A stretch of 64,000 bases of DNA, taken from the NCBI GenBank assembly GCA_964016885.1, contig OZ024748.1, forward strand, positions 18,166,001 through 18,230,000, given 5' to 3'. Within the stretch, counting starts at the first letter, position 1; the number at the start of each line of letters is the position of its first letter. Position numbers and translations under genes: made by a program. The stretch comes from Eledone cirrhosa. Lineage: Eukaryota. The notes beneath the pieces were generated by a model. The model was not told the origin of the DNA. It did not search any database and worked only from the letters and a program-made list of their open reading frames with translations. Positions 20,857 through 42,084 of the stretch are shown here, piece by piece.

Positions 20857-21003
20857 TATTTTCCGTAGTGTTGTAATATAAATATTACACACAGTAGATG
20901 GACAGCTCACGTAGAGTTTGCTCGACGGTTCCAGTTGTAGTTCCAAAAGTAATCCGGAGAAAAATAGAAGGATTTTAATGGATACAGTTTAGTTAAAAGG
21001 AAT

Positions 21004-21124
21004 TTATTGACACGTGTTTCTATAACAGTTACATAACCTGAAAACAGCTGCTATCTACAAAGTATTAGTTATGCAGACAATCAATATTTCAATGTTATTA
21101 TCAACTGTCATTTCATCGGAATAA
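21004..21124 (-). ncRNA. Hammerhead-like ribozyme with extended stem II in the Penelope pLTR
   Basis: Minus strand reads ttatt-CCGATGA-a-atgacagtt...aactgttat-a-GAAAC-acgt-GTC-aataa. Confidence 0.6.
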
Positions 21125-21617
21125 TTTTACTGAGGACCTGTTTGGTTTTTATAGAGAATATTAGGAGGGGGGGGGGGGGTGAAGTTGTTAGAAGAATAGT
21201 TGAGGGAGTGGTTTTTTGATGGCAGTGAGTAATTAGATTCCCATCTGTTGTTTTGACATTTCTATAGAATATATTATTGATTATTTTTCTAAATCTATAG
21301 AAGGATTAGAGATAGTTTAGATGTGGTTGGTTTTGTGTTTGCACTTAATTAACATTCAGATTTAAATTCTTCTTTCAAGTGTACGTATCCTTTCGCCCAT
21401 GCATTCACACACAAACATATATGCACACCTCTACAAAATACATATACTCACATACACATACTTACATGCTCATACTTACATACATATACACATGCATACA
21501 TATATATATACACATATATACATGTACATACATACGCGTTCATGTGTATACATTTTCATACTCAACTTATCTTTATATTCACACGTATAGACACACACAT
21601 ATATACACACATACTCC

Positions 21618-22277
21618 AATTAGAGAGAAACGAAGCCTGCATGCTCCGATGGATGTGTAACAGTAATATACGTGAACGACAAAGCATAAATGAATTGAGA
21701 GAGAGACTGAGCATAAGAGGAATCAAATGCTGTGTGCAGGAGAGGCGGTTGCGCTGGTATGGACATGTGATGCGTATGAAGGATGACAGCTGCATAAAAA
21801 GGTGCAGAGCACTAGAAGTTGATGGAAACCGCGGAGTGGGGAGACCCAAGATGACCTGGGATGAGGTGATAAAAGCCGACCTTACCCAATTACACCTCTC
21901 AAAGACAATGACACACGACCGTGACTTCTGGCGTCACGCAGTAATACAGAGTACCCGACCTCCCATGGGTACATGCTGAAGCATATAAACAATATGCCTC
22001 CACACCCCCCACCACAAGATGGTTGTGGAGGTGCCACGGCAAAAAAGCACCCAGCCAACACTGTAAAGTGGACGTGTAGGCGCCACGAAAAAGCACCCAG
22101 CACTCACTGTAAATGAGGTTGGTGTTAGGAAGGGCATCCAGCTGTAGAAATCAAGCCAGATCAGTTCCTGTATGAGCAAGGCATGGTCAGCCGACCAGAC
22201 ACTGCACACAACAGGACAACCCGTCTAACCCATGCTAGCGTGGAAGAACGAACGTAAAACGGTGATGATGATGATGA
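21618..22277 (+). mobile_element. 5'-truncated RTE LINE nested in the Penelope 3' region
   Basis: LERNEACMLRWMCNSNIRERQSINELR...RLRWYGHVMR matches the C-terminus of the intact RTE; (GAT)n tail. Confidence 0.92.
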
Positions 22278-22562
22278 TATATAAACACTTTAATACATGA
22301 ATGCACTTACATCTAACTATACACATCAAACATATATATATATTTACTTATTTATATACATTTTTCTCATATATATACATACTTATGGTCGCTTTTAGAC
22401 ACATTCATTATAGCATATTTGCACCTATTCTCATCAGCATATCTTTCCATTATTAGTGTGGTAATTTAAGGTTATTAATATACATATATATGTTGAGAAG
22501 AGATTATTTTTATATTTTTCTAACTAGATTGAGGTTTATATAGTTGGGGGGATGTCCCTCTT

Positions 22563-23780
22563 TTATGTAATATTCAGCTTGTAGTGGGAAAAAAGGGTTT
22601 TAGTTCGGTGACGGCAGAATAATGTTCGTTCAATTCTGTTATTCAGCAATTTCCTCTTGTGTGTGATTATGTAATAGATCTCAAGATTACACAATTTGCA
22701 GAAATTTTGGCTCCTGGAAAAGCTTTGGGTTTTAGCTAATTTCTCCCATTTTAGGGTAAACTTTTGATCGCTATCCCTGAGCGTCCAAGCTTTTTCTGCT
22801 AAAGTTGTTACATTTCTTTGGCTCTGGTGTTTTATTGAGTAAGAATGCCTATATAATCGAGATTTAAACGATGTTGCCGTTGATCCCACGTAATACCACT
22901 CGTTGCCTCCGGATTTAATGGTACACTTATAAATAATATTTTTTTCCAGGCACTTATTGCCGAGGGGGCAGTTGTCAGGATAGGTGCAGTTACAGTTGTG
23001 TACGTTGGGTTTTCTCTGGAGTAGTATTGCGGACGAACTTAGGTGTGGTTTATTTATGTTCTGTAGTGTATTGCCTACTGTTTTTTTTGTGTTCTTTGTA
23101 CTTAAGTTCTTAGTGTTTTCGTTTAACCTTCTAGTATTGATCTTTTTTATGTGTTGTTCAAGGTTTAACGCTGTAGAGTATGACAGTCTTATAGTGGTAG
23201 GGTTTAGGATTTTGTGGTATTTGTGTGATGTAGGAAAATGTCTCTTAATTATTTTAAAGAAGAGTACTGGTAAATTTGTACTAATGGAACTATTGTATTC
23301 AGAGTTATACCATAAGTACTCTTTGCATCGCTTTCTATTAGTTTTGTCTGTTGGTTTACTGGTGTGTATACTATGGTAGTAAGTGTGGTTTGGTGTTGTG
23401 TTATTATATCTACCTATGTGGGATTTATTTTGGGTGTTTTGATTGTTCTCATCTATATACTCTATTTTGTTGAGGTAGCCTGCTTTACTAAGGGCGTTAT
23501 CGTAGTACTCGGCGTGTTCCTTAAATACTTGTATGTTAGAAGATAGACCCGAGATTCTAAGGGAAATATTTTTAGGGATAGATTTAATTATAGAGATGGG
23601 GTGGTTAGACCCAACATTTACGTACTTGAGATTTTCATTCAATTTATGAAACGGTTTAATCAGACCAGAGTTTAAATTGAGTGTGACATCCAGGAAGTTA
23701 ACTACTTTAAGGTTGTATTCATATGTTATAGTTAGTCCTATTTCGAGTAGTAGTTTTCTTATATCTTTGCGTAGTTTTCC
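22563..23780 (-). CDS. Penelope-like ORF remnant: RT C-terminus, Cys-rich linker and GIY-YIG endonuclease
   Basis: The open frame extends upstream of the called ORF (GKLRKDIRKLLLEIGLTITYEYNLKVVNFLDVTLNL...YVNVGSNHP). It contains CNC..CPL..CL, IIYKC...YYVGST...SRLYRH and CKLCNLE. Confidence 0.88.
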   Translation of the reverse strand, partial: GKLRKDIRKLLLEIGLTITYEYNLKVVNFLDVTLNLNSGLIKPFHKLNENLKYVNVGSNHPISIIKSIPKNISLRISGLSSNIQVFKEHAEYYDNALSKAGYLNKIEYIDENNQNTQNKSHIGRYNNTTPNHTYYHSIHTSKPTDKTNRKRCKEYLWYNSEYNSSISTNLPVLFFKIIKRHFPTSHKYHKILNPTTIRLSYSTALNLEQHIKKINTRRLNENTKNLSTKNTKKTVGNTLQNINKPHLSSSAILLQRKPNVHNCNCTYPDNCPLGNKCLEKNIIYKCTIKSGGNEWYYVGSTATSFKSRLYRHSYSIKHQSQRNVTTLAEKAWTLRDSDQKFTLKWEKLAKTQSFSRSQNFCKLCNLEIYYIITHKRKLLNNRIERTLFCRHRTKTLFSHYKLNIT

Positions 23781-23819
23781 TAATATTCTCTATAAAAACC
23801 AAACAGGTCCTCAGTAAAA

Positions 23820-23940
23820 TTATTCCGATGAAATGACAGTTGATAATAACATTGAAATATTGAATGTCTGCATAACTAATACTTTGTAGATAGCAGCTGT
23901 TTTCAGGTTATGTAACTGTTATAGAAACACGTGTCAATAA
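23820..23940 (+). ncRNA. Hammerhead-like ribozyme with extended stem II (inverted pLTR copy)
   Basis: Stem I ttatt/aataa, core CCGATGA (23825-31), stem II atgacagtt/aactgttat, GAAAC-acgt-GTC; predicted cut after 23935. Confidence 0.6.
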
Positions 23941-23983
23941 ATTCCTTTTAACTAAACTGTATCCATTAAAATCCTTCTATATA

Positions 23984-24897: not shown

Positions 24898-25068
24898 GTA
24901 CTCAATACATAGGTAGAGTATAGACATTTTTTATTTAATATAGAAATGGCTTCTACAGGACTAGAACTGTTTCATTTGGGAGAAATGATTTATCCCAAAT
25001 GAAACAGTTCTAGTCCTGTAGAAGCCATTTCTATATTAAATATTTATACTCTGCTATGTATTGAGTAC
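24898..25068. repeat. Palindromic repeat at the left border of the tandem array
   Basis: atttaatatagaaatggcttctacaggactagaactgtttcatttggga is perfectly inverted across an 11-nt loop, with looser outer arms. Related diverged copies at 24425-24550 and 12020-12135. Confidence 0.85.
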
Positions 25069-25213
25069 CTTACTTGTTGTTTTTACCCCTGATTGAACCC
25101 GGGATAAACTTCATCATGATCCATCAGCATCACCGTCTTATGTCAATGTTTCCACGCTAAGATGGGTTAGACAGGTTGTCCTGTTGTGGGCAATGCCAGG
25201 TCAAGACACCATG

Positions 25214-25261
<48 letters not shown>

Positions 25262-25733
25262 TCCAGAAATAGCCGTTGAAATGGCTTGAGCTCTGCCGGC
25301 GGGGTCAAACTTTTTCCTATTACCCACTCTACTACCCTAAATAAAATATTCATAAAGCATAAAATTTATTTAATGCCACATATGTTAATGTGAAATAATG
25401 ATCTGTATCAAAACCAATGATGATTCCTTTGTATTTAGATTGATTTTTATATGTATACTATGTGAGTTATTTAGCAAAATTATTTGCAAAGTCTATACAT
25501 CTGTTGGTGATTTTGCATATATTTGCATATGCATCTTGTTGTGAAGCATTGTCTAAAAATATCCTTGTCAGACCCATGCCACCATGAAAAAGTTGACATA
25601 AAATTGTGTGGTTGTATGTATATACACAGACAACTGATGAAGGAAAATTTTTTCCCGTTCATGCTTTCCTCTTATTTATACGTACACCTTATCGAGCAAC
25701 TCCACAGCCCCTGTTTCTTCTTAAATTTATATA

Positions 25734-25792
<59 letters not shown>

Positions 25793-26115
25793 TACATACA
25801 CATACATAATACATATATAGTATCATTCCATTTTCCATTTCCATTTTGTCTGCTTTTTCCCTGCTTGCAAGGGTGGGACGGGAACTGTTCTGGCTTGATT
25901 TCTACAGCTGGATGCCCTTCCTAACACCAACCTCATTTACAGTGAGTGCTGGGTGCTTTTTTGCCGTGGCACCTCCACAACCACTTTGCAGTGGAATGAT
26001 ATGGGCCCCAGTCCCTATTATCTCATTTCTACAGCTGAGTAAACTGGAGCAATGTGAAATAAAGTGTCTTGCTCAAGGAAACAACACATCAAGACACTTT
26101 ATTTCACTTTATATA

Positions 26116-26157
<42 letters not shown>

Positions 26158-26463
26158 TGTATATATATATATATATATATACTGTATATATATATATATA
26201 TATACTGTATATATATATATATATACTGTATATATATATCATCATCATCATCATCGTTTAACGTCCGTGTTCCATGCTTGCATGGGTTTGGACGGGAGTT
26301 TTCCCACTTCAGGCAAGAGTGATTGTCTTGCTCGCATAGGACTGTCTGACGGGTTTTCTACAGTTGGATGCCCTTCCTAACACCAACCACATTTACAGTG
26401 TGGGGCTGGGAGGTTTTTACCGTGTTGCCTACACGGCCACATTACAGCGTGGACTGTCTGGCA

Positions 26464-26512
<49 letters not shown>

Positions 26513-26605
26513 TGTATATATATATATACTGTATATATAATATATATATTTCGTTTCTGAATTTGTTTAGCAAGATTCTTTATCTGAAATCGTGTGTTGA
26601 AACCG

Positions 26606-27064
26606 ATATTGTTATACTTCGGGAGGGTCATGTTGCCAATAAGAAACACACGCACCAGTTGCTTTCACTTCAATTTATTATATATTTATAAATTTATAAA
26701 TTTACAAATCTACAAACTTATAAATTTCTGGTTGGTTGGTTGGTTCCACAACCAGATAGTTGTTTATATATAGTCATAGTCCTTTCGTCACACACTCTGT
26801 GACCTCTTCAGTGACTGGGGATTCCTTTCTTTGTTTCTGTGCCTTTCCTTTCTTCTATCCTACGCCATTTTTGAAAAACAGAGTGTGTGACGAAAGGACT
26901 ATGACTATATATAAACAACTATCTGGTTGTGGAACCAACCAACCAACCAGAAATTTATAAGTTTGTAGATTTGTAAATTTATAAATTTATAAATATATAA
27001 TAAATTGAAGTGAAAGCAACTGGTGCGTGTGTTTCTTATTGGCAACATGACCCTCCCAAAGTAT

Positions 27065-27072
<8 letters not shown>
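26606..27072. mobile_element. Hairpin element 1 (195-bp inverted arms, 77-bp spacer), probably Penelope pLTR-derived; copies at 34976-35442 and 39636-40098
   Basis: Arms 26606-26800 and 26878-27072 are near-perfect reverse complements and contain an HHR. A shorter relative lies at about 48365-48535. Confidence 0.8.
26772..26816 (-). ncRNA. Minimal hammerhead ribozyme motif in hairpin element 1 (also 35142-35186 and 39798-39842)
   Basis: Minus strand reads agtca-CTGAAGA-g-gtcac(agagtgt)gtgac-GAAA-ggac-TA-tgact, with 5-bp stems I and II. Confidence 0.7.
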
Positions 27073-27097
<25 letters not shown>

Positions 27098-27112
27098 CTA
27101 TATATATATATA

Positions 27113-27512
27113 TAAAATACGTAGTTAAGAAAGCCACAACAATGCAGAGGGAAATCTCGAGGTAGGAAGTGAATGATAGATAGGAGAAACAGGAGAAAGT
27201 GAAAATTGAGAGAGACAAAGATGAAAACAAAACAAAGGTAGAAGGGTTATAACGGCATTCCTGTCTTAACGACATCACAACTTTCTCCGCTTGGCCTGTT
27301 CCCCCCCCCCTTTTTGGAACTTTCCCCCGTTGATGGGCGTGAGCCCGAAATATTGGGATTAAATCTCCACTACGGTAACCCTTCTACCTTTGTTTTGTTT
27401 TCATCTTTGTCTCTCTCAATTTTCACTTTCTCCTGTTTCTCCTATCTATCATTCACTTCCTACCTCGAGATTTCCCTCTGCATTGTTGTGGCTTTCTTAA
27501 CTACGTATTTTA
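27113..27512. mobile_element. Hairpin element 2 (137-bp inverted arms, ~126-bp spacer); copies at 35491-35891 and 40234-40632 (spacer inverted)
   Basis: Arms 27113-27249 and 27376-27512 are reverse complements. Confidence 0.85.
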
Positions 27513-27684
27513 CACATTTCACAATGCTTCAAGCAAACTTTAACACTCTCATATATATATATACTATATATATATATACTATATATATATACTATATATA
27601 TATATACTATATATATATATATATATACTATATATATATATATATATATATACTATATATATATATATATACTATATATATATA

Positions 27685-27720
<36 letters not shown>

Positions 27721-27889
27721 TATATATATATATACAGTATATATATATATACAGTATATATATATATATTATATAGTATATATATAGTATATATATACAG
27801 TATATATATATATATATATATATATACTATATATATATATACTATATATATATATATATACTATATATATATATACTATATATATATAT

Positions 27890-30800
27890 CTACCCCACAC
27901 CCCTCCCTCCCGCCCCCACACGCCACCATACTTAATACGTGGACCAATCATAAGCCAGAGCCCCCCCCCCCCGCATCACCACCATTATTATAAGCCAGAG
28001 CCACCCACCCCCACCCCCACGCATCACCATTATTATTATTACGCGGACCAAATCATAAGCCAGAGGCCTATACTATCGCTTGCCCGGTTGCCTTCGATAT
28101 ACGATGGATGGATAGATGGATGGATGGATGGACGGACGGACGGACTGCGGAATCCTTGGAGAATGGAAGGGAGAGAAAAATCTGGACGCTCAGAGCGAAA
28201 ATGCCAAAGTTAAAGTCAAATTCACCTCGTGGACGAGAATGCGAGCACTCCTCTTTGTTTCGTCCGCGGATGGCTAACATAACCCTATCTCCTCCCGCCC
28301 CCCACCACCCCCACCCTCCAAACGCAACCCAAAACTTCAGAGTTGGTACCATAAATGTAGGCACCCTAAAGGGTCGCGCTAACGAGGTTGTAGAAATGCT
28401 TGAACGTAAGGAGGTCGATGTTTGTTGTATTCAAGAGACCAGGTGGAGGGGTGGGTCTGCTAGATTCATTGAGGGTAAAAAACGATGTTATAAGCTTTTC
28501 TGGGTGGGAAACGACGATGGGCTGGGTGGAGTAGGAATCATGGTAGCAGAAAAGTGGGCAGATAAGATAATAGACGTAAATAGAGTGAACGACAGAATAA
28601 TTAAAATAAGACTTGTCCTCAATAGAACTACGGTGACAGTAATATCTGCGTACGCACCCCAATCCGGACTGCCCGGCACTATAAAAGACAGATTCTATGA
28701 GACACTGTTGCTAACTACCTCCCAAATATCTGACAGTGACTATATAATTATTGCAGGCGACCTAAATGGTCACGTTGGACAACATTGTGACGGCTATGAC
28801 GAAATCCATGGAGGCTATGGGTTTGGTACTAGAAATGAGGAAGGCTCCAGAATTCTGGAATACTGTGATGCAAATAACCTAACTATCTGTAACACTAACT
28901 TCAAAAAACGTGACAATCACCTGATTACCTATAGATCCGGGGAACACACAAGCCAGGTAGATTATATCCTTACCAGAAGACGTGACAGAGTGTCTGTTGT
29001 AAACACTAAATCCCTCCCCCATGAAGAATGCACCTCCCAACATAGACTGATAATTAGCGACCTCATAGTCAGGACGAGACGCACCCGACAGCAGAAGAGG
29101 ACTATCCTCAGGAGGAAAATATGGAAACTAAAAGACCCCACAGCCAGAAATAAATTTCAAAGCATATTACTTGATGCTTTCGACAGTAAGGAAGAGCATC
29201 TAGAATCGGACAATATAGAGGGACAGTGGAAATTTCTGAAAGCTAACCTGCTGTTGGCGACAGACGAAGTCTGTGGCTGGAGCAGGCCTGTAGGCAGGAG
29301 GAGAGTAACATGGTGGTGGAACAGTAAGGTGGAGGGGTCAATTAAGGCCAAAAAGCAGGCTTGGAAAGTATGGCGGGATGGGGGAAGTAGAGTAGACTAT
29401 CAAGTGGCCAGGAGGGAAGCTAGGAGAGAAGTGTACTTAGCAAGAAGGGAAGCTGAGGAAAGAAAGTTCAAGCATGTTCTACAACGCGATGACCAAAAAC
29501 GTGAGGTGTTCAGGATTGCCAGGCAATGCGTCAAGGAAAACCGTGATATTGTCGGGGAGAAGTGTGTACTTAACGATGATGGCATACTTGCCATCACCGA
29601 CACTGATAAGAAGGTAGCTTGGAAGTGTCACTATGAAAGGCTACTAAATGAGGAGAATAAATGGGAGAAAGACAGTCTCCCCCATATCGACCCGATAGAG
29701 GGACCAGCAGTGTTAGTCGAGGGGAGTATAATAAGTAAGGCAATCAAGGATATGAAGACTGGTAAGGCGGCTGGGCCTTCGGAAATAGTTGCTGAGATGC
29801 TGAAGGCATCTGGCACGGTGGGACACACCATGGTCACCCGCATAGTTAACCAAGTCGTACAGAATGGGGTTGTTCCGAAGGACTGGCATAGCAGCATCAT
29901 CGTTAACTGTTATAAGGGTAAAGGAGACGCCCTAGATAGGAGTAACTATAGAGGCATTAAATTAATCGACCAGGTCATGAAGGTCACGGAAAAAGTAATA
30001 GCGCAACTAATCAGAGAGAGAATTGATCTAGATGAAATGCAGTTCGGGTTTGTGTCAGGCAAAAGCACCACAGACGCTCTTTTCATAGTACGACAACTAC
30101 AGGAGAAGTACCTAGCTAAAGGTAAACCCCTCTACTTAGCTTTTGTCGACCTGGAGAAAGCCTTCGACAGAGTCCCCCGCTCCATTATCTGGTGGGCTCT
30201 TAGAAAACTAGGCGTTGACGAATGGCTTGTGAGGGCTATACAAGCCATGTATAAAGAAACAGTCAGCAAGGTTAGAATTAACAACGAATATAGTGAAGAG
30301 TTTAGCGTAAAAGTTGGCGTCCATCAGGGCTCTGTTCTCAGCCCCCTACTATTTATTATTGCCCTTCAGGCTATAACAGAGGAGTTCAAGACAGGCTGCC
30401 CATGGGAACTCCTATACGCAGACGACCTGACACTCATAGCGGAATCAATGGCCGAGCTAGAGAAGAAATTCCAAACATGGAAGCACGGCCTAGAGTCAAA
30501 AGGACTTAAAATTAACCTGGCTAAGACCAAAGTTCTAGTTTGTAGGAAAGAAAACAAGGCGGCGGTCCCTTCTGGGAAATGGTCGTGCTCGGTATGTAGG
30601 AAAGGCGTAGGTAGAAACTCCATCTTATGTCCTAAATGCAAAGTATGGGTGCATAAAAGATGTAGTGGGATCACAGGTAAGCTAACTAAGAACATAGACT
30701 TTACATGTGGCCGGTGTTCTGGTGCAATAAGTAGCAGCAAGTGCCCACAAAATACTAGCTCTTTCAATTGCGCAGAGGGTTTTATAGAAATAGTGGACAG

Positions 30801-31735
30801 CTTCCGTTACCTGGGCGATAAAATCAGCAGTGGGGGAGGGTGCTCTGAAAGTACTGTAGCTAGAGTCAGAACTGGTTGGAAAAAGTTCAGAGAGCTTATA
30901 CCACTATTAGCTGCTAAAGGGTTCTCCCTAAAAATGAAAGGCAGGTTGTACGATGCCTGCATACGAACAGCAATGTTGCATGGTAGTGAGACCTGGGCAT
31001 TGTGTGCAGAGGATATACGCAGACTAGAGAGGAACGAAGCTTGCATGCTCCGCTGGATGTGTAACAGTAATATACGTGAACGGCAAAGCATAAACGAACT
31101 AAGGAAAAAATTAGAGATAAGAGGGATCAGATGTTGTTTACTCGAGAGAAGGCTGCGTTGGTATGGACACGTGATGCGCATGAAAGTCGATAGCTGTATT
31201 ACAAAGTGCAGGGCAATAAAGATAGACGGTAGCCACGGAATAGGCAGACCTAGAAAAACATGGGATGAGCTGATAAACTCCGACCTCACACACTTACACC
31301 TCTCCAAGACAATGTCACTGGACCGTGACCTTTGGCGGTACTCAGTAACAGAGAAGACCCGCCTTGCCAGTAGGCATCTCTAGCAAAATACACCCCTCCC
31401 GCCGCCACCCCCACCCCATCCACACCACCCCGTTCTATGTAAAGTTATGTTGGTGCCGCGCCATCCAGGCCGAAACAAATGAGATCGTGTAGGTGTCACG
31501 ACAAAAAAACACACAGTCCACGCTGTAATGTGGCCGTGTAGGCAACACGGTAAAAACCTCCCAGACCCACACTGTAAATGTGGTTGGTGTTAGGAAGGGC
31601 ATCCAACTGTAGAAAACCTGCCAGACAGTCCTATGCGAGCAAGACAATCACTCTTGCCTCAAGTGGGACTACCCCCGTCCAAACCCATGCAAGCGTGGAA
31701 CACGGACGTTAAACGTTGATGATGATGATGATGAT
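27890..31735 (+). mobile_element. Full-length, apparently intact RTE-clade LINE inserted in a (TA)n tract of unit A
   Basis: C-rich 5' UTR with short repeats (taagccagag x3), a single long ORF, and a 3' UTR ending in (GAT)n. It is absent from the matching site in units B and C. Confidence 0.95.
28108..31383 (+). CDS. RTE ORF: AP endonuclease + reverse transcriptase with inserted PHD-type zinc finger (true start may be ATG 28201 or 28270)
   Basis: APE motifs GTINVGTL, CIQETRW, SAYAPQ, GDLNGHVG, QVDYIL. RT motifs FVDLEKAFDRV, GVHQGSVLSPLLF, YADD. C4HC3 pattern CSVC...CPKC...HKRC...CGRC. C-terminal RLRWYGHV...GRPRKTW. Confidence 0.97.
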   Translation: MDRWMDGWTDGRTAESLENGRERKIWTLRAKMPKLKSNSPRGRECEHSSLFRPRMANITLSPPAPHHPHPPNATQNFRVGTINVGTLKGRANEVVEMLERKEVDVCCIQETRWRGGSARFIEGKKRCYKLFWVGNDDGLGGVGIMVAEKWADKIIDVNRVNDRIIKIRLVLNRTTVTVISAYAPQSGLPGTIKDRFYETLLLTTSQISDSDYIIIAGDLNGHVGQHCDGYDEIHGGYGFGTRNEEGSRILEYCDANNLTICNTNFKKRDNHLITYRSGEHTSQVDYILTRRRDRVSVVNTKSLPHEECTSQHRLIISDLIVRTRRTRQQKRTILRRKIWKLKDPTARNKFQSILLDAFDSKEEHLESDNIEGQWKFLKANLLLATDEVCGWSRPVGRRRVTWWWNSKVEGSIKAKKQAWKVWRDGGSRVDYQVARREARREVYLARREAEERKFKHVLQRDDQKREVFRIARQCVKENRDIVGEKCVLNDDGILAITDTDKKVAWKCHYERLLNEENKWEKDSLPHIDPIEGPAVLVEGSIISKAIKDMKTGKAAGPSEIVAEMLKASGTVGHTMVTRIVNQVVQNGVVPKDWHSSIIVNCYKGKGDALDRSNYRGIKLIDQVMKVTEKVIAQLIRERIDLDEMQFGFVSGKSTTDALFIVRQLQEKYLAKGKPLYLAFVDLEKAFDRVPRSIIWWALRKLGVDEWLVRAIQAMYKETVSKVRINNEYSEEFSVKVGVHQGSVLSPLLFIIALQAITEEFKTGCPWELLYADDLTLIAESMAELEKKFQTWKHGLESKGLKINLAKTKVLVCRKENKAAVPSGKWSCSVCRKGVGRNSILCPKCKVWVHKRCSGITGKLTKNIDFTCGRCSGAISSSKCPQNTSSFNCAEGFIEIVDSFRYLGDKISSGGGCSESTVARVRTGWKKFRELIPLLAAKGFSLKMKGRLYDACIRTAMLHGSETWALCAEDIRRLERNEACMLRWMCNSNIRERQSINELRKKLEIRGIRCCLLERRLRWYGHVMRMKVDSCITKCRAIKIDGSHGIGRPRKTWDELINSDLTHLHLSKTMSLDRDLWRYSVTEKTRLASRHL

Positions 31736-31778
31736 ATATACTATATATATATATATATATATATATACTGTATATATA

Positions 31779-31812
<34 letters not shown>

Positions 31813-31936
31813 TGTATATATATACTATATATATACTATATAATATATATATATATACTGTATATATATATATATATACTGTATATATATATATACTGTA
31901 TATATATATATATATAATGTATAAATATACATTATG

Positions 31937-31981
31937 GCAAGCTGATGAGTTGGGATTACCCAACGAAACTTAAGTACCTGT
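31937..31981 (+). ncRNA. Canonical-core minimal type I hammerhead ribozyme (unit A)
   Basis: gcaag-CTGATGA-gttggg(atta)cccaac-GAAAC-ttaa-GTA-cctgt: intact core, 6-bp stem II, palindromic stem III (acttaagt), GUA cleavage triplet; stem I has one mismatch. Confidence 0.8.
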
Positions 31982-32002
31982 ATATATCACTGTTGTAACT
32001 GA

Positions 32003-33322
32003 ACTATCCTTGAAAGGTCGAGCGGAGGTGGCGAACACTTTTATAGCGTCCGCCATCTACTACCGCTTGACCGTCGTGCCTTGTCCAGCCAAAACGCTCG
32101 CCAAAATGGAGCGCGCCCTCTTCCGATTCCTTTGGAAGAGGCGGGCTCCTTTGGTAAGAAGATCCATCTGCTGCCAACACCCTTCTAACGGAGGGCTGGG
32201 GATGCCGTGGTTGACGATGCGCAAACACGCGCTCAGGCTGCGGCATCTCTACGTATTCCTCACCGGACAACCGGTGTGGGCCCCGTTCGTGAGGCGAGCC
32301 TTCCCACGACTCGTCTCGCTGACCGAGCTGCAGTCCTGGGTCAAGCAGAGACCGAGGAAAATGGGCGACTGGCACATCGAATGTGCTCAGGCGCTCACAG
32401 CCCTCTGGCAGGCGGACCCAGCGATCAGTGGAGACTCCACTTTGTCATTCTATAGAGGGTTGGTCCGCAGCAAGTGCGACGACGCGCTCGGTGAAACTCT
32501 AGGCGTGGAGGAAGATGAACTGGCCAGTCTGTTCGGTAGGACCTTCCGCCCGGGACCGATGGACAACTTTCAAAAGTCCCTGGCCTGGCAGTGCTACCGA
32601 GGAGCTCTACCAGTTCGAGACAAGCTCTACAGACATGGGCGCCCGGGCAGGGACCCTGCAAAAAAGATCTGTCCGAGGTGCGTGCGAGACGAAGAAACCG
32701 TCGCGCACGCATTCATACACTGCCCGGGCGTCAATGACCTGTGGGGCTATGTAGAACGACTATTGTCGCGGGTGGGACCAATCCAGTTGACCACCGAGTC
32801 CATTGTCATGATCAAACCGCCACCCTCCTTCAAAAACGAAGGAGAGGCGGTTTTCCTTTGTGTGATAGCTATGGCGAAAGAGGTTGTATGGTGGACAAGG
32901 TTGAAAGGGCTGAGGTCAGACACCTTTCTCTCCGGCCAACAACTGATTCTTTTTTTCAAATACCACTTTGGAAGAAGAATCAGGATGGAGAGAGAGGTGC
33001 TGTACCCCAGCAAGTTTTATGAAAGGTGGGTGAAAGTGGCGAGAATGGCCCGAGTGAATGGGCCTTCTCTCTATATCAGCCTGTAGGTTGAGGAAAAGGA
33101 GGAGGACAGGAAAGGAGTACAAGCTCTTCGTACTCCTGGAGATGAGGGTTGCACATTTTTTTCGGGGGTCTGTGTTACCCATATAAACTGTCTCCCTCTA
33201 TTGGGGAAAATCGACTAACTTTTAAATTCCATCTGTGATAACATTTTACACGTTTTTATTGTATGTAAACTTCCCCCTTTGTATTTGTCCCCTTCTTTTG
33301 TGCCCCTGTGGCTAATAAAGAA
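32003..33322 (+). mobile_element. 5'-truncated L1/Tx1-clade LINE (ORF2 C-terminal 358 aa, 32010-33086, with zf-RVT CCHC)
   Basis: SLKGR..., FRFLW, GGLG, LPVRDKL, CPRC-x8-H-x4-C; AATAAA at 33314; empty site in unit C. Confidence 0.9.
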
Positions 33323-33587
33323 ATCTATCTATCTATATATATATAAATGATGATGATGATGATTTATCCCAAATGAAACAGTTCTAGTCCTGTAGAAGCC
33401 ATTTCTATATTAAATATTTATACTCTGCTATGTATTGAGTACCTTACTTGTTGTTTTTACCCCTGATTGAACCCGGGATAAACTTCATCATCATCCATCA
33501 TCATCACCGTCTTATGTCAATGTTTCCACGCTAAGATGGGTTAGACAGGTTGTCCTGTTGTGGGCAATGCCAGGTCAAGACACCATG

Positions 33588-33645
<58 letters not shown>

Positions 33646-34117
33646 TCCAGAAATAGCCGTTGAAATGGCTTGAGCTCTGCCGGCGGGGTCAAACTTTTTC
33701 CTATTACCCACTCTACTACCCTAAATAAAATATTCATAAAGCATAAAATTTATTTAATGCCACATATGTTAATGTGAAATAATGATCTGTATCAAAACCA
33801 ATGATGATTCCTTTGTATTTAGATTGATTTTTATATGTATACTATGTGAGTTATTTAGCAAAATTATTTGCAAAGTCTATACATCTGTTGGTGATTTTGC
33901 ATATATTTGCATATGCATCTTGTTGTGAAGCATTGTCTAAAAATATCCTTGTCAGACCCATGCCACCATGAAAAAGTTGACATAAAATTGTGTGGTTGTA
34001 TGTATATACACAGACAACTGATGAAGGAAAATTTTTTCCCGTTCATGCTTTCCTCTTATTTATACGTACACCTTATCGAGCAACTCCACAGCCCCTGTTT
34101 CTTCTTAAATTTATATA

Positions 34118-34178
<61 letters not shown>

Positions 34179-34501
34179 TACATACACATACATAATACAT
34201 ATATAGTATCATTCCATTTTCCATTTCCATTTTGTCTGCTTTTTCCCTGCTTGCAAGGGTGGGACGGGAACTGTTCTGGCTTGATTTCTACAGCTGGATG
34301 CCCTTCCTAACACCAACCTCATTTACAGTGAGTGCTGGGTGCTTTTTTGCCGTGGCACCTCCACAACCACTTTGCAGTGGAATGATATGGGCCCCAGTCC
34401 CTATTATCTCATTTCTACAGCTGAGTAAACTGGAGCAATGTGAAATAAAGTGTCTTGCTCAAGGAAACAACACATCAAGACACTTTATTTCACTTTATAT
34501 A

Positions 34502-34535
<34 letters not shown>

Positions 34536-34841
34536 TGTATATATATATATATATATATACTGTATATATATATATATATATACTGTATATATATATATAT
34601 ATACTGTATATATATATCATCATCATCATCATCGTTTAACGTCCGTGTTCCATGCTTGCATGGGTTTGGACGGGAGTTTTCCCACTTGAGGCAAGAGTGG
34701 TTGTCTTGCTCGCATAGGACTGTCTGGCGGGTTTTCTACAGTTGGATGCCCTTCCTAACACCAACCACATTTACAGTGTGGGGCTGGGAGGTTTTTACCG
34801 TGTTGCCTACACGGCCACATTACAGCGTGGACTGTCTGGCA

Positions 34842-34882
<41 letters not shown>

Positions 34883-35434
34883 TGTATATATATATATACT
34901 GTATATATAATATATATATTTCGTTTCTGAATTTGTTTAGCAAGATTCTTTATCTGAAATCGTGTGTTGAAACCGATATTGTTATACTTCGGGAGGGTCA
35001 TGTTGCCAATAAGAAACACACGCACCAGTTGCTTTCACTTCAATTTATTATATATTTATAAATTTATAAATTTACAAATCTACAAACTTATAAATTTCTG
35101 GTTGGTTGGTTGGTTCCACAACCAGATAGTTGTTTATATATAGTCATAGTCCTTTCGTCACACACTCTGTGACCTCTTCAGTGACTGGGGATTCCTTTCT
35201 TTGTTTCTGTGCCTTTCCTTTCTTCTATCCTACGCCATTTTTGAAAAACAGAGTGTGTGACGAAAGGACTATGACTATATATAAACAACTATCTGGTTGT
35301 GGAACCAACCAACCAACCAGAAATTTATAAGTTTGTAGATTTGTAAATTTATAAATTTATAAATATATAATAAATTGAAGTGAAAGCAACTGGTGCGTGT
35401 GTTTCTTATTGGCAACATGACCCTCCCAAAGTAA

Positions 35435-35476
<42 letters not shown>

Positions 35477-36063
35477 TATATATATATATATAAAATACGT
35501 AGTTAAGAAAGCCACAACAATGCAGAGGGAAATCTCAAGGTAGGAAGTGAATGATAGATAGGAGAAACAGGAGAAAGTGAAAATTGAGAGAGACAAAGAT
35601 GAAAACAAAACAAAGGTAGAAGGGTTATAACGGCATTCCTGTCTTAACGACATCACAACTTTCTCCGCTTGGCCTGTTCCCCCCCCCCCCTTTTGGAACT
35701 TTCCCCCGTTGATGGGCGTGAGCCCGAAATATTGGGATTAAATCTCCACTACGGTAACCCTTCTACCTTTGTTTTGTTTTCATCTTTGTCTCTCTCAATT
35801 TTCACTTTCTCCTGTTTCTCCTATCTATCATTCACTTCCTACCTCGAGATTTCCCTCTGCATTGTTGTGGCTTTCTTAACTACGTATTTTACACATTTCA
35901 CAATGCTTCAAGCAAACTTTAACACTCTCATATATATATATACTATATATATATATACTATATATATATACTATATATATATATACTATATATATATATA
36001 TATATACTATATATATATATATATATATATACTATATATATATATATATACTATATATATATA

Positions 36064-36099
<36 letters not shown>

Positions 36100-36218
36100 T
36101 ATATATATATATACAGTATATATATATATACAGTATATATATATATATTATATAGTATATATATAGTATATATATACAGTATATATATATATATATATAT
36201 ATATACTATATATATATA

Positions 36219-36254
<36 letters not shown>

Positions 36255-36279
36255 TATATATATATACTATATATATATA

Positions 36280-36347
<68 letters not shown>

Positions 36348-36358
36348 CTGTATATATA

Positions 36359-36392
<34 letters not shown>

Positions 36393-36518
36393 TGTATATA
36401 TATACTATATATATACTATATAATATATATATATATATACTGTATATATATATATATATACTGTATATATATATATACTGTATATATATATATATATAAT
36501 GTATAAATATACATTATG

Positions 36519-36563
36519 GCAAGCTGATGAGTTGGGATTACCCAACGAAACTTAAGTACCTGT
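36519..36563 (+). ncRNA. Canonical-core minimal hammerhead ribozyme (unit B)
   Basis: Identical to 31937-31981. Confidence 0.8.
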
Positions 36564-36584
36564 ATATATCACTGTTGTAACTGA

Positions 36585-37904
36585 ACTATCCTTGAAAGGT
36601 CGAGCGGAGGTGGCGAACACTTTTATAGCGTCCGCCATCTACTACCGCTTGACCGTCGTGCCTTGTCCAGCCAAAACGCTCGCCAAAATGGAGCGCGCCC
36701 TCTTCCGATTCCTTTGGAAGAGGCGGGCTCCTTTGGTAAGAAGATCCATCTGCTGCCAACACCCTTCTAACGGAGGGCTGGGGATGCCGTGGTTGACGAT
36801 GCGCAAACACGCGCTCAGGCTGCGGCATCTCTACGTATTCCTCACCGGACAACCGGTGTGGGCCCCGTTCGTGAGGCGAGCCTTCCCACGACTCGTCTCG
36901 CTGACCGAGCTGCAGTCCTGGGTCAAGCAGAGACCGAGGAAAATGGGCGACTGGCACATCGAATGTGCTCAGGCGCTCACAGCCCTCTGGCAGGCGGACC
37001 CAGCGATCAGTGGAGACTCCACTTCGTCATTCTATAGAGGGTTGGTCCGCAGCAAGTGCGACGACGCGCTCGGTGAAACTCTAGGCGTGGAGGAAGATGA
37101 ACTGGCCAGTCTGTTCGGTAGGACCTTCCGCCCGGGACCGATGGACAACTTTCAAAAGTCCCTGGCCTGGCAGTGCTACCGAGGAGCTCTACCAGTTCGA
37201 GACAAGCTCTACAGACATGGGCGCCCGGGCAGGGACCCTGCAAAAAAGATCTGTCCGAGGTGCGTGCGAGACGAAGAAACCGTCGCGCACGCATTCATAC
37301 ACTGCCCGGGCGTCAATGACCTGTGGGGCTATGTAGAACGACTATTGTCGCGGGTGGGACCAATCCAGTTGACCACCGAGTCCATTGTCATGATCAAACC
37401 GCCACCCTCCTTCAAAAACGAAGGAGAGGCGGTTTTCCTTTGTGTGATAGCTATGGCGAAAGAGGTTGTATGGTGGACAAGGTTGAAAGGGCTGAGGTCA
37501 GACACCTTTCTCTCCGGCCAACAACTGATTCTTTTTTTCAAATACCACTTTGGAAGAAGAATCAGGATGGAGAGAGAGGTGCTGTACCCCAGCAAGTTTT
37601 ATGAAAGGTGGGTGAAAGTGGCGAGAATGGCCCGAGTGAATGGGCCTTCTCTCTATATCAGCCTGTAGGTTGAGGAAAAGGAGGAGGACAGGAAAGGAGT
37701 ACAAGCTCTTCGTACTCCTGGAGATGAGGGTTGCACATTTTTTTCGGGGGTCTGTGTTACCCATATAAACTGTCTCCCTCTATTGGGGAAAATCGACTAA
37801 CTTTTAAATTCCATCTGTGATAACATTTTACACGTTTTTATTGTATGTAAACTTCCCCCTTTGTATTTGTCCCCTTCTTTTGTGCCCCTGTGGCTAATAA
37901 AGAA
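36585..37904 (+). mobile_element. Duplicate of the L1/Tx1 fragment (ORF 36592-37668)
   Basis: Same breakpoints as 32003-33322; the protein differs at one residue (L vs S). Confidence 0.9.
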
Positions 37905-38169
37905 ATCTATCTATCTATATATATATAAATGATGATGATGATGATTTATCCCAAATGAAACAGTTCTAGTCCTGTAGAAGCCATTTCTATATTAAATATT
38001 TATACTCTGCTATGTATTGAGTACCTTACTTGTTGTTTTTACCCCTGATTGAACCCGGGATAAACTTCATCATCATCCATCATCATCACCGTCTTATGTC
38101 AATGTTTCCACGCTAAGATGGGTTAGACAGGTTGTCCTGTTGTGGGCAATGCCAGGTCAAGACACCATG

Positions 38170-38209
<40 letters not shown>

Positions 38210-39009
38210 TCCAGAAATAGCCGTTGAAATGGCTTGAGCTCTGCCGGCGGGGTCAAACTTTTTCCTATTACCCACTCTACTACCCTAAATAAAATATTCA
38301 TAAAGCATAAAATTTATTTAATGCCACATATGTTAATGTGAAATAATGATCTGTATCAAAACCAATGATGATTCCTTTGTATTTAGATTGATTTTTATAT
38401 GTATACTATGTGAGTTATTTAGCAAAATTATTTGCAAAGTCTATACATCTGTTGGTGATTTTGCATATATTTGCATATGCATCTTGTTGTGAAGCATTGT
38501 CTAAAAATATCCTTGTCAGACCCATGCCACCATGAAAAAGTTGACATAAAATTGTGTGGTTGTATGTATATACACAGACAACTGATGAAGGAAAATTTTT
38601 TCCCGTTCATGCTTTCCTCTTATTTATACGTACACCTTATCGAGCAACTCCACAGCCCCTGTTTCTTCTTAAATTTATATACTGTATATATATATATATA
38701 TATATGCATACATACACATACATAATACATATATAGTATCATTCCATTTTCCATTTCCATTTTGTCTGCTTTTTCCCTGCTTGCAAGGGTGGGACGGGAA
38801 CTGTTCTGGCTTGATTTCTACAGCTGGATGCCCTTCCTAACACCAACCTCATTTACAGTGAGTGCTGGGTGCTTTTTTGCCGTGGCACCTCCACAACCAC
38901 TTTGCAGTGGAATGATATGGGCCCCAGTCCCTATTATCTCATTTCTACAGCTGAGTAAACTGGAGCAATGTGAAATAAAGTGTCTTGCTCAAGGAAACAA
39001 CACATTATA

Positions 39010-39073
<64 letters not shown>

Positions 39074-39156
39074 TATATAAAGTGAAATAAAGTGTCTTGA
39101 TGTGTCTTGCTCAAGGAAACAACACATCAAGACACTTTATTTCACTTTATATACTG

Positions 39157-39188
<32 letters not shown>

Positions 39189-39472
39189 TACTGTATATAT
39201 ATATATACTGTATATATATATATATATACTGTATATATATATCATCATCATCATCATCATCATCGTTTAACGTCCGTGTTCCATGCTTGCATGGGTTTGG
39301 ACGGGAGTTTTCCCACTTGAGGCAAGAGTGGTTGTCTTGCTCGCATAGGACTGTCTGGCGGGTTTTCTACAGTTGGATGCCCTTCCTAACACCAACCACA
39401 TTTACAGTGTGGGGCTGGGAGGTTTTTACCGTGTTGCCTACACGGCCACATTACAGCGTGGACTGTCTGGCA

Positions 39473-39553
<81 letters not shown>

Positions 39554-40090
39554 CTGTATATATATATATATATATATATTTCGTTTCTGAATTTGTTTAG
39601 CAAGATTCTTTATCTGAAATCGTGTGTTGAAACCGATATTGTTATACTTTGGGAGGGTCATGTTGCCAATAAGAAACACACGCACCAGTTGCTTTCACTT
39701 CAATTTATTATATATTTATAAATTTATAAATTTACAAATCTACAAACTTATAAATTTCTTGTTGGTTGGTTCCACAACCAGATAGTTGTTTATATATAGT
39801 CATAGTCCTTTCGTCACACACTCTGTGACCTCTTCAGTGACTGGGGATTCCTTCCTTTGTTTCTGTGCCTTTCCTTTCTTCTATCCTTCGCCATTTTTGA
39901 AAAACAGAGTGTGTGACGAAAGGACTATGACTATATATAAACAACTATCTAGTTGTGGAACCAACCAACCAACCAGAAATTTATAAGTTTGTAGATTTGT
40001 AAATTTATAAATTTATAAATATATAATAAATTGAAGTGAAAGCAACTGGTGCATGTGTTTCTTATTGGCAACATGACCCTCCCAAAGTAT

Positions 40091-40134
<44 letters not shown>

Positions 40135-40152
40135 TATATATATATATATATA

Positions 40153-40188
<36 letters not shown>

Positions 40189-40694
40189 TATATATATATA
40201 TATATATATATATACTATATATATATATATATATAAAATACGTAGTTAAGAAAGCCACAACAATGCAGAGGGAAATCTCGAGGTAGGAAGTGAATGATAG
40301 ATAGGAGAAACAGGAGAAAGTGAAAATTGAGAGAGACAAAGATGAAAACAAAACAAAGGTAGAAGGGTTACCGTAGTGGAGATTTAATCCCAATATTTCG
40401 GGCTCACGCCCATCAACGGGGGAAAGTTCCAAAAGGGGGGGGGGAACAGGCCAAGCGGAGAAAGTTGTGATGTCGTTAAGACAGGAATGCCGTTATAACC
40501 CTTCTACCTTTGTTTTGTTTTCATCTTTGTCTCTCTCAATTTTCACTTTCTCCTGTTTCTCCTATCTATCATTCACTTCCTACCTCGAGATTTCCCTCTG
40601 CATTGTTGTGGCTTTCTTAACTACGTATTTTACACATTTCACAATTCTTCAAGCAAACTTTAACACCCTCATATATATATATATATACTATATA

Positions 40695-40738
<44 letters not shown>

Positions 40739-40889
40739 TGTATATATATATATATATACTATATATATATATATACTATATATATATATATACTATATAA
40801 TATATATATACTGTATATATATATATATATATACTGTATATATATATATACTGTATATATATATATATAATGTATAAATATACATTATG

Positions 40890-40934
40890 GCAAGCTGATG
40901 AGTTGGGATTACCCAACGAAACTTAAGTACCTGT
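40890..40934 (+). ncRNA. Canonical-core minimal hammerhead ribozyme (unit C)
   Basis: Identical to 31937-31981. Confidence 0.8.
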
Positions 40935-41848
40935 ATATATCACTGTTGTAACTGATTATATATCTATCTATCTATATATATATAAATGATGATGATGATG
41001 ATTTATCCCAAATGAAACAGTTCTAGTCCTGTAGAAGCCATTTCTATATTAAATATGATATATACACACATATACACAATACACACACACAAAAGTGACC
41101 ATGCTAACACACACACATATATATATATATATAAGCATGGAAAGCTGGACACACTCTCCCATAATGCTGCTGAAATGGGTAAAAGCTTTCAGTCCATCTT
41201 GTTAGGTGGTCATGCTGGTGTCACAACAAACGCCCCTAGTCCACCATGCTAGATGCTCATGATAGTAACATGACAAAAGAACACCCAGTCCACCCTGTAA
41301 AGTGGTCGTGTTTGTGACGCCACAAAATGTACCTAGTACACCCATTAAAGTGGTTGTATTGGTGACACAGCTAAAAGTACCCAGTCCATCCTGCCAAGTG
41401 GTCATATTGGTGATACAGCAAAAAGTACTCAGTTCAACCTGTCAGTTGGCCATGGAGGTGTATCCCAACAAAAAGCAACCAGTCACCATTGTAAATGTGT
41501 TGGCGTTAAGAAGGGCATCCCACTGTATTTACGGAGAACTTACATTTGTGACATATATACAAAAACTAATTTCGTTCCATTGCTTATGTTTACGTTTCGT
41601 GTTTTCGATTTTCCATTTCACTTTAATGGAATCCTTCTGTCCAGAATTTAATAGCAGGTAGAAATCGCATCAACGCTTAATTTTCACAAGAATTATATAT
41701 AGCTGTGTTGTCAAGTTTTTGTTTACATCATTATAGTTATTGTATAAACAGAAATGAGTGCAACGCGAGTGGAATTTGATGAGTGTGGAAACAATGAAAG
41801 CAACAAAACTTATCTATTAAAATACAATAAAATGAAAAGAAATAGCAT

Positions 41849-41855
41849 CGTCCCT

Positions 41856-41905
<50 letters not shown>

Positions 41906-41922
41906 AATTGCGCCACAGAGAC
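41849..41922 (-). tRNA. tRNA-Asn (anticodon GTT)
   Basis: Minus strand GTCTCTGTGGCGCAATTGGTTAGCGCGTTCGGCTGTTAACCGAAAGGTTGGTGGTTCAAGCCCACCCAGGGACG, 74 nt, full cloverleaf. A T4 Pol III terminator lies downstream (41835-41838). Confidence 0.96.
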
Positions 41923-42084
41923 GTAACCGAAAACGCTTGGCTAAATAAATAACTTATATGCCTGACTTTCTCTTCTCTTCTCTTTTTTTCCTATGACCTA
42001 ATTTCCTTTGCTAAAGGACAGTAAAGATAGTTAATACAAACAGATTGTCAGTAGGGTTGTTTTGGTGGGCGATGTTTTCATTTT

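What the first reader, a model, noticed from the sequence alone, without database searches (positions are those of the whole stretch)
40234..40632. Flipped spacer between 137-bp inverted arms: a natural invertible segment carrying an HHR-like motif
Seen: in units A (27250-27375) and B (35628-35754) the spacer reads taacggcattcc...ctccactacgg. In unit C (40371-40495) it is the reverse complement, while the arms and outer flanks keep their orientation. Inference: recombination or template switching between the arms inverts the spacer, which switches the strand that carries the ribozyme-like motif. It may be recurrent or polymorphic.
Basis: partly seen in the sequence, partly recalled or inferred. 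Interest (0 to 1): 0.7.

Follow-up and report, generated by a model that had tools for sequence, protein, structure and literature searches.

The report
Penelope mirror stub with flipped loop
The hairpin is a mirror-ended stub of a very common Penelope-type jumping gene that was later copied three times in tandem, and in one copy the loop between the two identical arms points the other way, likely through a one-off passive DNA inversion rather than a genetic switch.

Summary
Spacer plus right arm is the 263-nt pseudo-LTR of a Penelope-like retrotransposon (about 1,500 motif copies; an 877-aa RT + GIY-YIG copy exists elsewhere). The 'unique flank' is the element's own 39-nt tail. Such inverted stubs are the described footprint of these elements: 32 of 74 sampled loci have them, 10 in the A layout and 11 in the C layout. 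The exact fold-back junction occurs only three times in the 3-Gb genome, all here, so A, B and C are one insertion, tandemly duplicated; B is a C-left/A-right chimera. That leaves one likely post-insertion flip, of unknown direction, by a known process (spacer inversion between perfect inverted repeats). Nothing shows switching, recurrence or polymorphism; available reads cannot phase it. The hammerhead-like motif fits a minimal hammerhead only with two core changes (U4C, A6U); untested. The scan noted similar Penelope 'flip/flop' stubs before in this genome, but at independent insertions.

The parts
40234..40370 (-). Unit C left arm: last 137 nt of the Penelope-like pLTR, inverted, 3' end abutting (TA)n with no tail
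40371..40495 (-). Unit C spacer: first 125 nt of the pLTR; in C it is contiguous with the left arm (complete pLTR 40234-40495 on the minus strand)
40388..40423 (-). Hammerhead-like motif in C (stem I UCCC/GGGA, core CCGUUGA + bulged U, stem II GGGC-GUGA-GCCC, GAAA, UA, U, U); departs from consensus at positions 4 and 6
   Evidence: position; conservation; parse is my inference; no Rfam hit
40496..40632 (+). Unit C right arm: last 137 nt of the pLTR; fold-back junction at 40495/40496
40633..40671 (+).
27113..27249 (-). Unit A left arm (short inverted copy, no tail); fold-back junction at 27249/27250
27250..27512 (+). Unit A complete pLTR: spacer 27250-27375 + right arm 27376-27512; 258 of 264 columns identical to the 3' pLTR of the full-length copy L031
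27323..27358 (+). Hammerhead-like motif in A
27513..27551 (+). Unit A tail (reads MLQANFNTL, as the ORF start of L032)
35491..35930 (+). Unit B hairpin and tail, same layout as A (arms 35491-35627 and 35755-35891, spacer 35628-35754, motif 35702-35737, tail 35892-35930); private G>A at 35537 in the left arm
24985..41056 (.). Three-unit tandem duplication that holds the hairpins (units start near 24985, 33359, 37941; a fourth start at about 40985-41056); B = C-like left part + A-like right part
26606..27072 (.). Second inverted stub of another repeat family (195-bp arms, 77-nt spacer, canonical minimal hammerhead CTGAAGA..GAAA on minus at 26811); copies at 34976-35442 and 39636-40098, all in the same orientation (internal control)

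Best explanation
The hairpin is an inverted, 5'-truncated insertion of a Penelope-like retrotransposon in a (TA)n tract that was later triplicated in tandem, and the loop between its two perfect 137-bp arms was likely flipped once, passively, in either the C lineage or the A/B lineage. Steps: (1) SHOWN: spacer+arm is the element's pLTR and the right flank its 39-nt tail. (2) INFERRED from the literature and the genome-wide pattern: the element's RT/GIY-YIG protein made two cDNAs from one RNA, one starting at the pLTR end and one 39 nt further (tail), both stopped early and were joined head to head, giving a full pLTR facing a 137-nt stub. (3) SHOWN by sequence, mechanism inferred: the region was duplicated (A and C, about 0.7% apart on this side), and an unequal crossover made B. 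(4) INFERRED: a replication template switch or intrachromatid recombination between the identical arms inverted the spacer once; no recombinase is needed. The flip moves the intact pLTR and its hammerhead-like motif to the other strand, likely without consequence: no coding sequence or known gene lies under its control.
For: Spacer is followed by the arm in 40 of 40 rows from 30 loci; an 877-aa ORF with RVT_1 (E 6e-11) and GIY-YIG (E 2e-4, just under Pfam's cutoff) lies between these pLTRs in L031; the tail translates as the ORF start. 1,505 exact motif matches and 1,769 arm matches in G000, controls 0. 32 of 74 loci fetched on contig C1 are inverted pairs; of these 10 have the tail on the longer copy (A-like), 11 on the shorter (C-like), 8 are symmetric, 2 have no tail, 1 has two. 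29 of 105 copy 5' ends fall within 17 nt around the spacer's first base, so the spacer boundary is the family's own truncation hot spot (list read by hand). The exact junction occurs 3 times in 3 Gb, all in the window. C has 7 private substitutions and 2 gaps in the linked right-hand block, so it is a distinct physical copy. Spacer inversion between perfect inverted repeats is a described mutation type (PMC8604942 passages; PMC8755829 abstract).
Against: No read evidence: Logan contigs and 150-nt RAD reads do not link the junction to a flank across a 137-bp multi-copy arm, and no listed piece spans the junction. The direction of the flip cannot be set, as both layouts are equally common elsewhere. 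Near-identical junctions do arise independently (4 other loci, two with the same junction as each other), so junction sharing is strong but not absolute proof of one insertion. Arms+spacer show 0 substitutions in 398 bp between A and C against 7 in 647 bp around them (Fisher p=0.049; p=0.14 over all compared blocks; post hoc), a weak hint of later homogenisation.
Confidence: 0.78

Rival explanations
1. Assembly or library artefact: unit C really has the A/B orientation and the flip comes from a fold-back read or a mis-resolved palindrome.
For: Perfect long hairpins (predicted about -175 kcal/mol as ssDNA) are hard templates; PMC8557442 (passage) notes that PLE inverted structures trouble assemblies; reads could not confirm the junction or its phase.
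Against: No gaps in the window; C carries its own substitutions on both sides and lacks the Tx1-like fragment of A and B; the neighbouring longer hairpin is consistent in all three units; both junctions of the flipped spacer are base-exact.
Confidence: 0.09
2. Frequent, recurrent flipping: PLE mirror stubs invert their loops often (germline or soma), so orientation is polymorphic at each unit and the 1:1 genome-wide split is partly made after insertion.
For: One flip is seen in only two lineages; the 10:11 split is what equilibrium flipping would give; zero A-C substitutions in the hairpin (p=0.049, weak); reversible spacer flips are reported in yeast for short arms (PMC8604942 passages).
Against: Arms are not kept homogeneous: B's left arm has an uncorrected mismatch, the second hairpin has 1, 2 and 2+gap mismatches, and the 21 asymmetric pairs on C1 carry 44 substitutions in 4,060 arm columns. 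Both layouts occur among pairs with at most one arm difference (6 C-like, 3 A-like), as expected if insertion itself makes both; the tail 'at either end' is described (PMC8557442 passage). The second hairpin did not flip; nor did three tandem copies of its family on C4 differ at their junction.
Confidence: 0.09
3. Two independent insertions into the same TA tract of two alleles or paralogs, one in each layout, with no inversion.
For: Both layouts are made at about 1:1, the spacer start is a truncation hot spot, and microhomology yields near-identical junctions elsewhere (L180 and L181 share one).
Against: Needs the same microsatellite, the same junction to the base (3 of 3 genome-wide matches are here), identical arms and spacer and the same tail end twice.
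Confidence: 0.03
4. A programmed invertible switch (phase-variation type) that controls which strand carries a ribozyme.
For: Only the layout: inverted arms around a segment seen in two orientations.
Against: Arms are retrotransposon ends present at about 1,700 places; no recombinase-like ORF among the 9 ATG ORFs of 150 aa or more in the window (spliced genes would be missed); no gene under control; locus is a young, single-site duplication.
Confidence: 0.01

Closest known systems
Insertions of endonuclease-positive Penelope-like elements with an inverted 5'-truncated pLTR and a 30-40 bp tail (Craig et al. 2021, PMC8557442, passages; Arkhipova et al. 2013, PMC3846280, passages; Frangieh et al. 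2024, PMC11167929, parts 1-2 of 4 read)
   Same: RT + C-terminal GIY-YIG parent; pLTR; inverted truncated copy adjacent at the 5' end; 39-nt tail at one end only that equals the ORF start; insertion in (TA)n.
   Different: Here both copies are so short that only a 399-bp hairpin remains, and a later tandem duplication preserves the same insertion in two orientations. Clade not determined; it is not Hydra (DKG and CCHH are present) and not Naiad (EN is C-terminal).
Spacer inversion / microinversion between perfect inverted repeats by template switching or break repair (Abraham and Hazkani-Covo 2021, PMC8604942, passages; Potapova et al. 2022, PMC8755829, abstract)
   Same: Spacer exactly reverse-complemented, arms and outer flanks unchanged.
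   Different: Those cases have arms of about 10-16 bp and spacers of 2-5 nt (yeast) or inversions of 17-33 nt (human-chimp); here arms are 137 bp and the spacer 125 nt, long enough for homologous recombination as well.
Minimal type I hammerhead ribozymes of metazoan PLEs (Cervera and de la Pena 2014, PMC4209133, parts 1-2 of 4 read)
   Same: Position in the pLTR; 4-bp helix I; C3-G8 pair, G5, A9, bulged nucleotide before 10.1, G10.1-C11.1, G12 A13 A14, A15.1-U16.1 with palindromic 15.2-16.2.
   Different: U4 is C and A6 is U; helix II is only 4 bp with a GNRA loop. Perreault et al. 2011 (PMC3088659, passages) report U4C and A6C as low-activity natural variants and do not mention A6U.
Recombinase-driven invertible segments (Hin/Gin, fim switch; recalled, no call)
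   Same: A segment between inverted repeats seen in two orientations.
   Different: No recombinase, no short crossover sites, no controlled gene, no evidence of switching.

Membership tests
EN+ Penelope-like element (canonical, C-terminal GIY-YIG) | Parent ORF with PLE-type RT followed by GIY-YIG endonuclease with CCHH motif | tested here: met
   L031:1674-4304, 877 aa: RVT_1 E 6e-11; GIY-YIG E 2.3e-4 (21.8 bits, cutoff 22.6); DKG at 324, YVDD at 572, CDKC..YIGST..H..H at 790-830
EN+ Penelope-like element (canonical, C-terminal GIY-YIG) | pLTR: same sequence before and after the ORF in partial tandems | tested here: met
   L032 has spacer+arm at 4781-5042 and 8233-8494 around the ORF; L079, L096, L123 likewise
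EN+ Penelope-like element (canonical, C-terminal GIY-YIG) | Inverted 5'-truncated copy with a 30-40 bp tail at one end only | tested here: met
   29 of 32 inverted pairs have the tail on exactly one side; tail 39 nt = ORF start
EN+ Penelope-like element (canonical, C-terminal GIY-YIG) | RT phylogeny placing it in Penelope/Poseidon, Neptune or Nematis | not tested
   No reference PLE set was fetched; linker reads C-x4-C-x6-C (residue 768 on), which does not match CX2-5CxxC as given in PMC8557442
Minimal type I hammerhead ribozyme | Core CUGANGA (or UUGANAA) ... GAAA ... UH | tested here: not met
   Descriptor scan finds none in the spacer or in the element part of L031/L032; Rfam none; best parse has CCGUUGA (U4C, A6U)
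Minimal type I hammerhead ribozyme | Helices I and II and palindromic 15.2-16.2 around the core | tested here: met
   UCCC/GGGA, GGGC/GCCC, A-UA-U (sequence); this fold scores -12.2 against an MFE of -13.7 kcal/mol for the 36-mer
Minimal type I hammerhead ribozyme | Conservation / covariation of the motif | tested here: inconclusive
   13 differences in 988 cells in the motif against 220 in 5,571 in the rest of the pLTR among 30 copies picked by an arm pattern; copies are related, and no compensatory change was seen
Minimal type I hammerhead ribozyme | Self-cleavage | not testable with these tools
   needs in vitro assay
Programmed invertible segment | Dedicated site-specific recombinase and short recombination sites | tested here: not met
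   None among window ORFs; arms are transposon ends; spliced or distant genes not excluded
Programmed invertible segment | Both orientations among molecules of one individual or clone | not testable with these tools
   Only contigs and 150-nt RAD reads were served

The most novel reading that the evidence does not exclude
The hundreds of mirror-ended Penelope stubs in this genome are standing microinversion cassettes: their loops keep flipping after insertion, this tandem triplet is a caught before/after pair, part of the 1:1 tail-side split is made by such flips, and each flip moves a pLTR with an active, doubly variant hammerhead (core CCGUUGA) to the other strand.
Probability: 0.1. Interest if true: 0.5.

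Novelty: new member of a known kind. Interest (0 to 1): 0.22.

Why it matters
Modestly. It is a clean natural before/after example that a Penelope mirror insertion can be the substrate of a later microinversion, and a warning that the side on which the tail lies is not a safe record of the integration mechanism. If flipping proved frequent, PLE-rich genomes would hold thousands of small invertible loops that short reads cannot see. The fixed U4C/A6U hammerhead-like core in a family of about 1,500 copies is a cheap test of how far the hammerhead core can bend, or of a non-cleaving role for PLE hammerheads.

Tried and rejected
Read support: no RNA holder listed. Laying contigs X1, X4 and RAD reads X15, X16 on unit C and contigs X1-X4 on the junction gave family-wide coverage only; no listed piece spans the junction (434 and 105 pieces were not shown), so neither presence nor phase was settled. 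Rfam on the whole window gave only a tRNA and hairpin-shaped miRNA hits far below gathering scores. Folding the spacer gave no unusual stability (z 0.61 and 0.96). A first parse of the motif with U3-G8 and no A9 was dropped for the CCGUUGA parse. A conservation count on loci picked by the motif itself was discarded as biased and redone on loci picked by an arm pattern. Polarising the flip by the commoner layout failed (10 vs 11; among pairs with at most 1 arm difference 3 vs 6). L180/L181 (same junction, opposite strands, 177 kb apart) looked like a second flip but have unrelated flanks and the same layout. A MITE/TIR reading was rejected: the arms are one end of a retroelement and elsewhere occur singly. 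A parvovirus-like flip/flop terminus was rejected for the same reason. In the tally, 42 of 74 loci were left out (no inverted pair, or one side without a pLTR end, e.g. L074, L080, L089, L090); pairs were read by hand. Lunse et al. 2017 on PLE hammerhead variants was seen only as a reference-list entry, so whether U4C/A6U is already described there is open. Six paper searches listed no paper on post-insertion flipping of PLE inverted stubs; I saw listings only for most, and subscription papers are not searched.

Full report
Observation. The three hairpins are as described. Arms are 137 bp: 27113-27249/27376-27512 (perfect), 35491-35627/35755-35891 (one mismatch at 35537) and 40234-40370/40496-40632 (perfect). 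The spacers (126, 127, 125 nt) are identical apart from homopolymer length once C's is reverse-complemented. (TA)n lies left and acacatttcaca right in all three. The window has no N.

What the parts are. The spacer is a high-copy repeat: 1,516 first-look candidates, 1,505 exact matches to its central motif and 1,769 to the arm start, controls 0. That flank reads on into an ORF (MLQANFNTLLSLHLSQ..FLKRCL..IIP) in tandem copies. [quoted passage not shown] So spacer+arm is the pLTR of an endonuclease-positive Penelope-like element, and the flank is its 39-nt tail. Craig et al. 2021 (PMC8557442, passages) and Arkhipova et al. 2013 (PMC3846280, passages) describe exactly this: an inverted 5'-truncated copy next to the 5' end and a 30-40 bp tail at either end; Frangieh et al. 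2024 (PMC11167929, parts 1-2) tie the tail to two adjacent RT start sites.

How ordinary the layout is. I fetched the 74 clusters made by the first 100 motif matches on contig C1. 32 of 74 are inverted pairs with a pLTR end on both sides; 10 have the tail on the longer copy (as A/B), 11 on the shorter (as C), 8 are symmetric, 2 have no tail, 1 has two. 29 of 105 copy 5' ends fall at reference positions 3182-3198, around the spacer's first base. A relaxed junction pattern finds four more hairpins almost like this one at other loci, three C-like and one A-like. Both layouts are therefore common products in this genome, and counting them does not measure flipping.

Why this case is still a flip. 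The exact junction occurs three times in 3.0 Gb, all in the window, and the surrounding unique DNA has three full-length copies, all here. The units are a tandem duplication running from about 24985 to 41056. In the left part of the unit B equals C and A differs by 5 substitutions; in the right part, which holds the hairpin, B equals A and C differs by 7 substitutions and 2 gaps. B is thus most simply a C-left/A-right product of unequal crossover (inference). A and B also share a Tx1-like fragment that C lacks, and A alone has an RTE-like element. So there are two lineages of the hairpin, not three, and one inversion between them; its direction is unknown. It may have happened on one allele before the two were joined in tandem.

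Mechanism. Shown: perfect arms, exact reversal, shared junction. Inferred: a template switch at the replication fork or intrachromatid recombination between the arms. Spacer inversion with unchanged perfect arms is a described mutation type (PMC8604942, passages; PMC8755829, abstract), there on much shorter repeats. Against frequent flipping: the adjacent hairpin with 195-bp arms keeps one orientation in all units and has 1, 2 and 2-plus-gap arm mismatches; B's left arm keeps a private change; the 21 asymmetric pairs carry 44 substitutions in 4,060 arm columns. For some exchange: 0 substitutions in 398 hairpin bp between A and C against 7 in 647 bp around (p=0.049, or 0.14 over all blocks; post hoc).

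Reads. Only contigs and RAD-seq reads were served, none on record as RNA. They cover the family but cannot link the junction to a flank through a multi-copy 137-bp arm, and no listed piece spans the junction. An assembly error is therefore not excluded, though C's private variants and gap-free context argue against it.

The hammerhead-like motif. Rfam finds nothing and a canonical descriptor misses it while finding canonical minimal hammerheads in neighbouring repeats. The best parse (my inference) is helix I UCCC/GGGA, core C3 C4 G5 U6 U7 G8 A9, bulged U, helix II GGGC-GUGA-GCCC, G12 A13 A14 A15.1 U A U16.1 U17 at 27323-27358, 35702-35737 and 40388-40423 (minus). It keeps the features Cervera and de la Pena list for PLE minimal hammerheads (PMC4209133) but has U4C and A6U; Perreault et al. 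describe U4C and A6C as weakly active and do not mention A6U (PMC3088659, passages). It is more conserved than the rest of the pLTR (13/988 vs 220/5,571 cells in 30 copies picked by an arm pattern), without covariation. 'HHR-like' is fair; activity is untested. The flip does put it on the other strand, but nothing shows the locus is transcribed or that a gene is affected: the nearest features seen are a tRNA-Asn at 41848-41923 and a hydrolase-like exon near position 1476.

Earlier notes. The scan already reports Penelope mirror stubs in this genome, including a 'flip/flop' case explained by either arm being the longer (e1-9560044). My counts agree for independent insertions; this locus differs in being one insertion seen in both states.

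Verdict. Real feature, known kind of structure, one likely passive microinversion; not a switch. Interest 0.22.

Noticed in passing
window 20964-23980: Another Penelope-like family: 408-aa RT-thumb/GIY-YIG fragment on minus (22563-23789) framed by 203-bp inverted repeats (20964-21166 / 23778-23980, 99.5%), interrupted by an RTE fragment.
   Followed up: no
window 26560-27072 (copies 34976-35442, 39636-40098); L042 = G000:C13:25625387: Second inverted stub family with a canonical minimal hammerhead (CTGAAGA-G-GTCAC..GTGAC-GAAA) and a tail of about 46 nt; nearly the same fold-back junction recurs once on C13 with unrelated flanks, same layout.
   Followed up: partly
window 31942, 36524, 40895 (+); 13966, 17642 (+); 47998 (-): Further canonical minimal hammerheads (CTGATGA..GAAA) of other repeat families; each duplicated unit carries three different hammerhead-type stubs.
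   Followed up: no
window 27994-31383: Uninterrupted 1,091-1,129 aa RTE-like ORF (APE + RT + PHD finger) inserted in unit A only; likely young.
   Followed up: partly
window 31992-33320 and 36574-37900: 5'-truncated Tx1/L1-like fragment (zf-RVT) in units A and B, absent from C.
   Followed up: partly
window 24942-25032: Small hairpin (about 40-bp arms) whose right arm marks the start of every duplicated unit (33359, 37941, 40985).
   Followed up: no
L180 = G000:C7:82911274 and L181 = G000:C7:83088805: Two independent insertions with the same fold-back junction, joined over a short microhomology between the pLTR start and the spacer/arm border.
   Followed up: partly
L072, L091, L122, L127: Near spacer-less palindromes of up to about 1.25 kb per arm made by the same family.
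   Followed up: no
window 41848-41923 (-): tRNA-Asn(GTT) gene 1.2 kb right of unit C.
   Followed up: no
window about 1400-1600 (+) and L035:6674-7306: Exons of an alpha/beta-hydrolase-like host gene (GHSCG and HGTED motifs; family label recalled, no search) upstream of the array.
   Followed up: no
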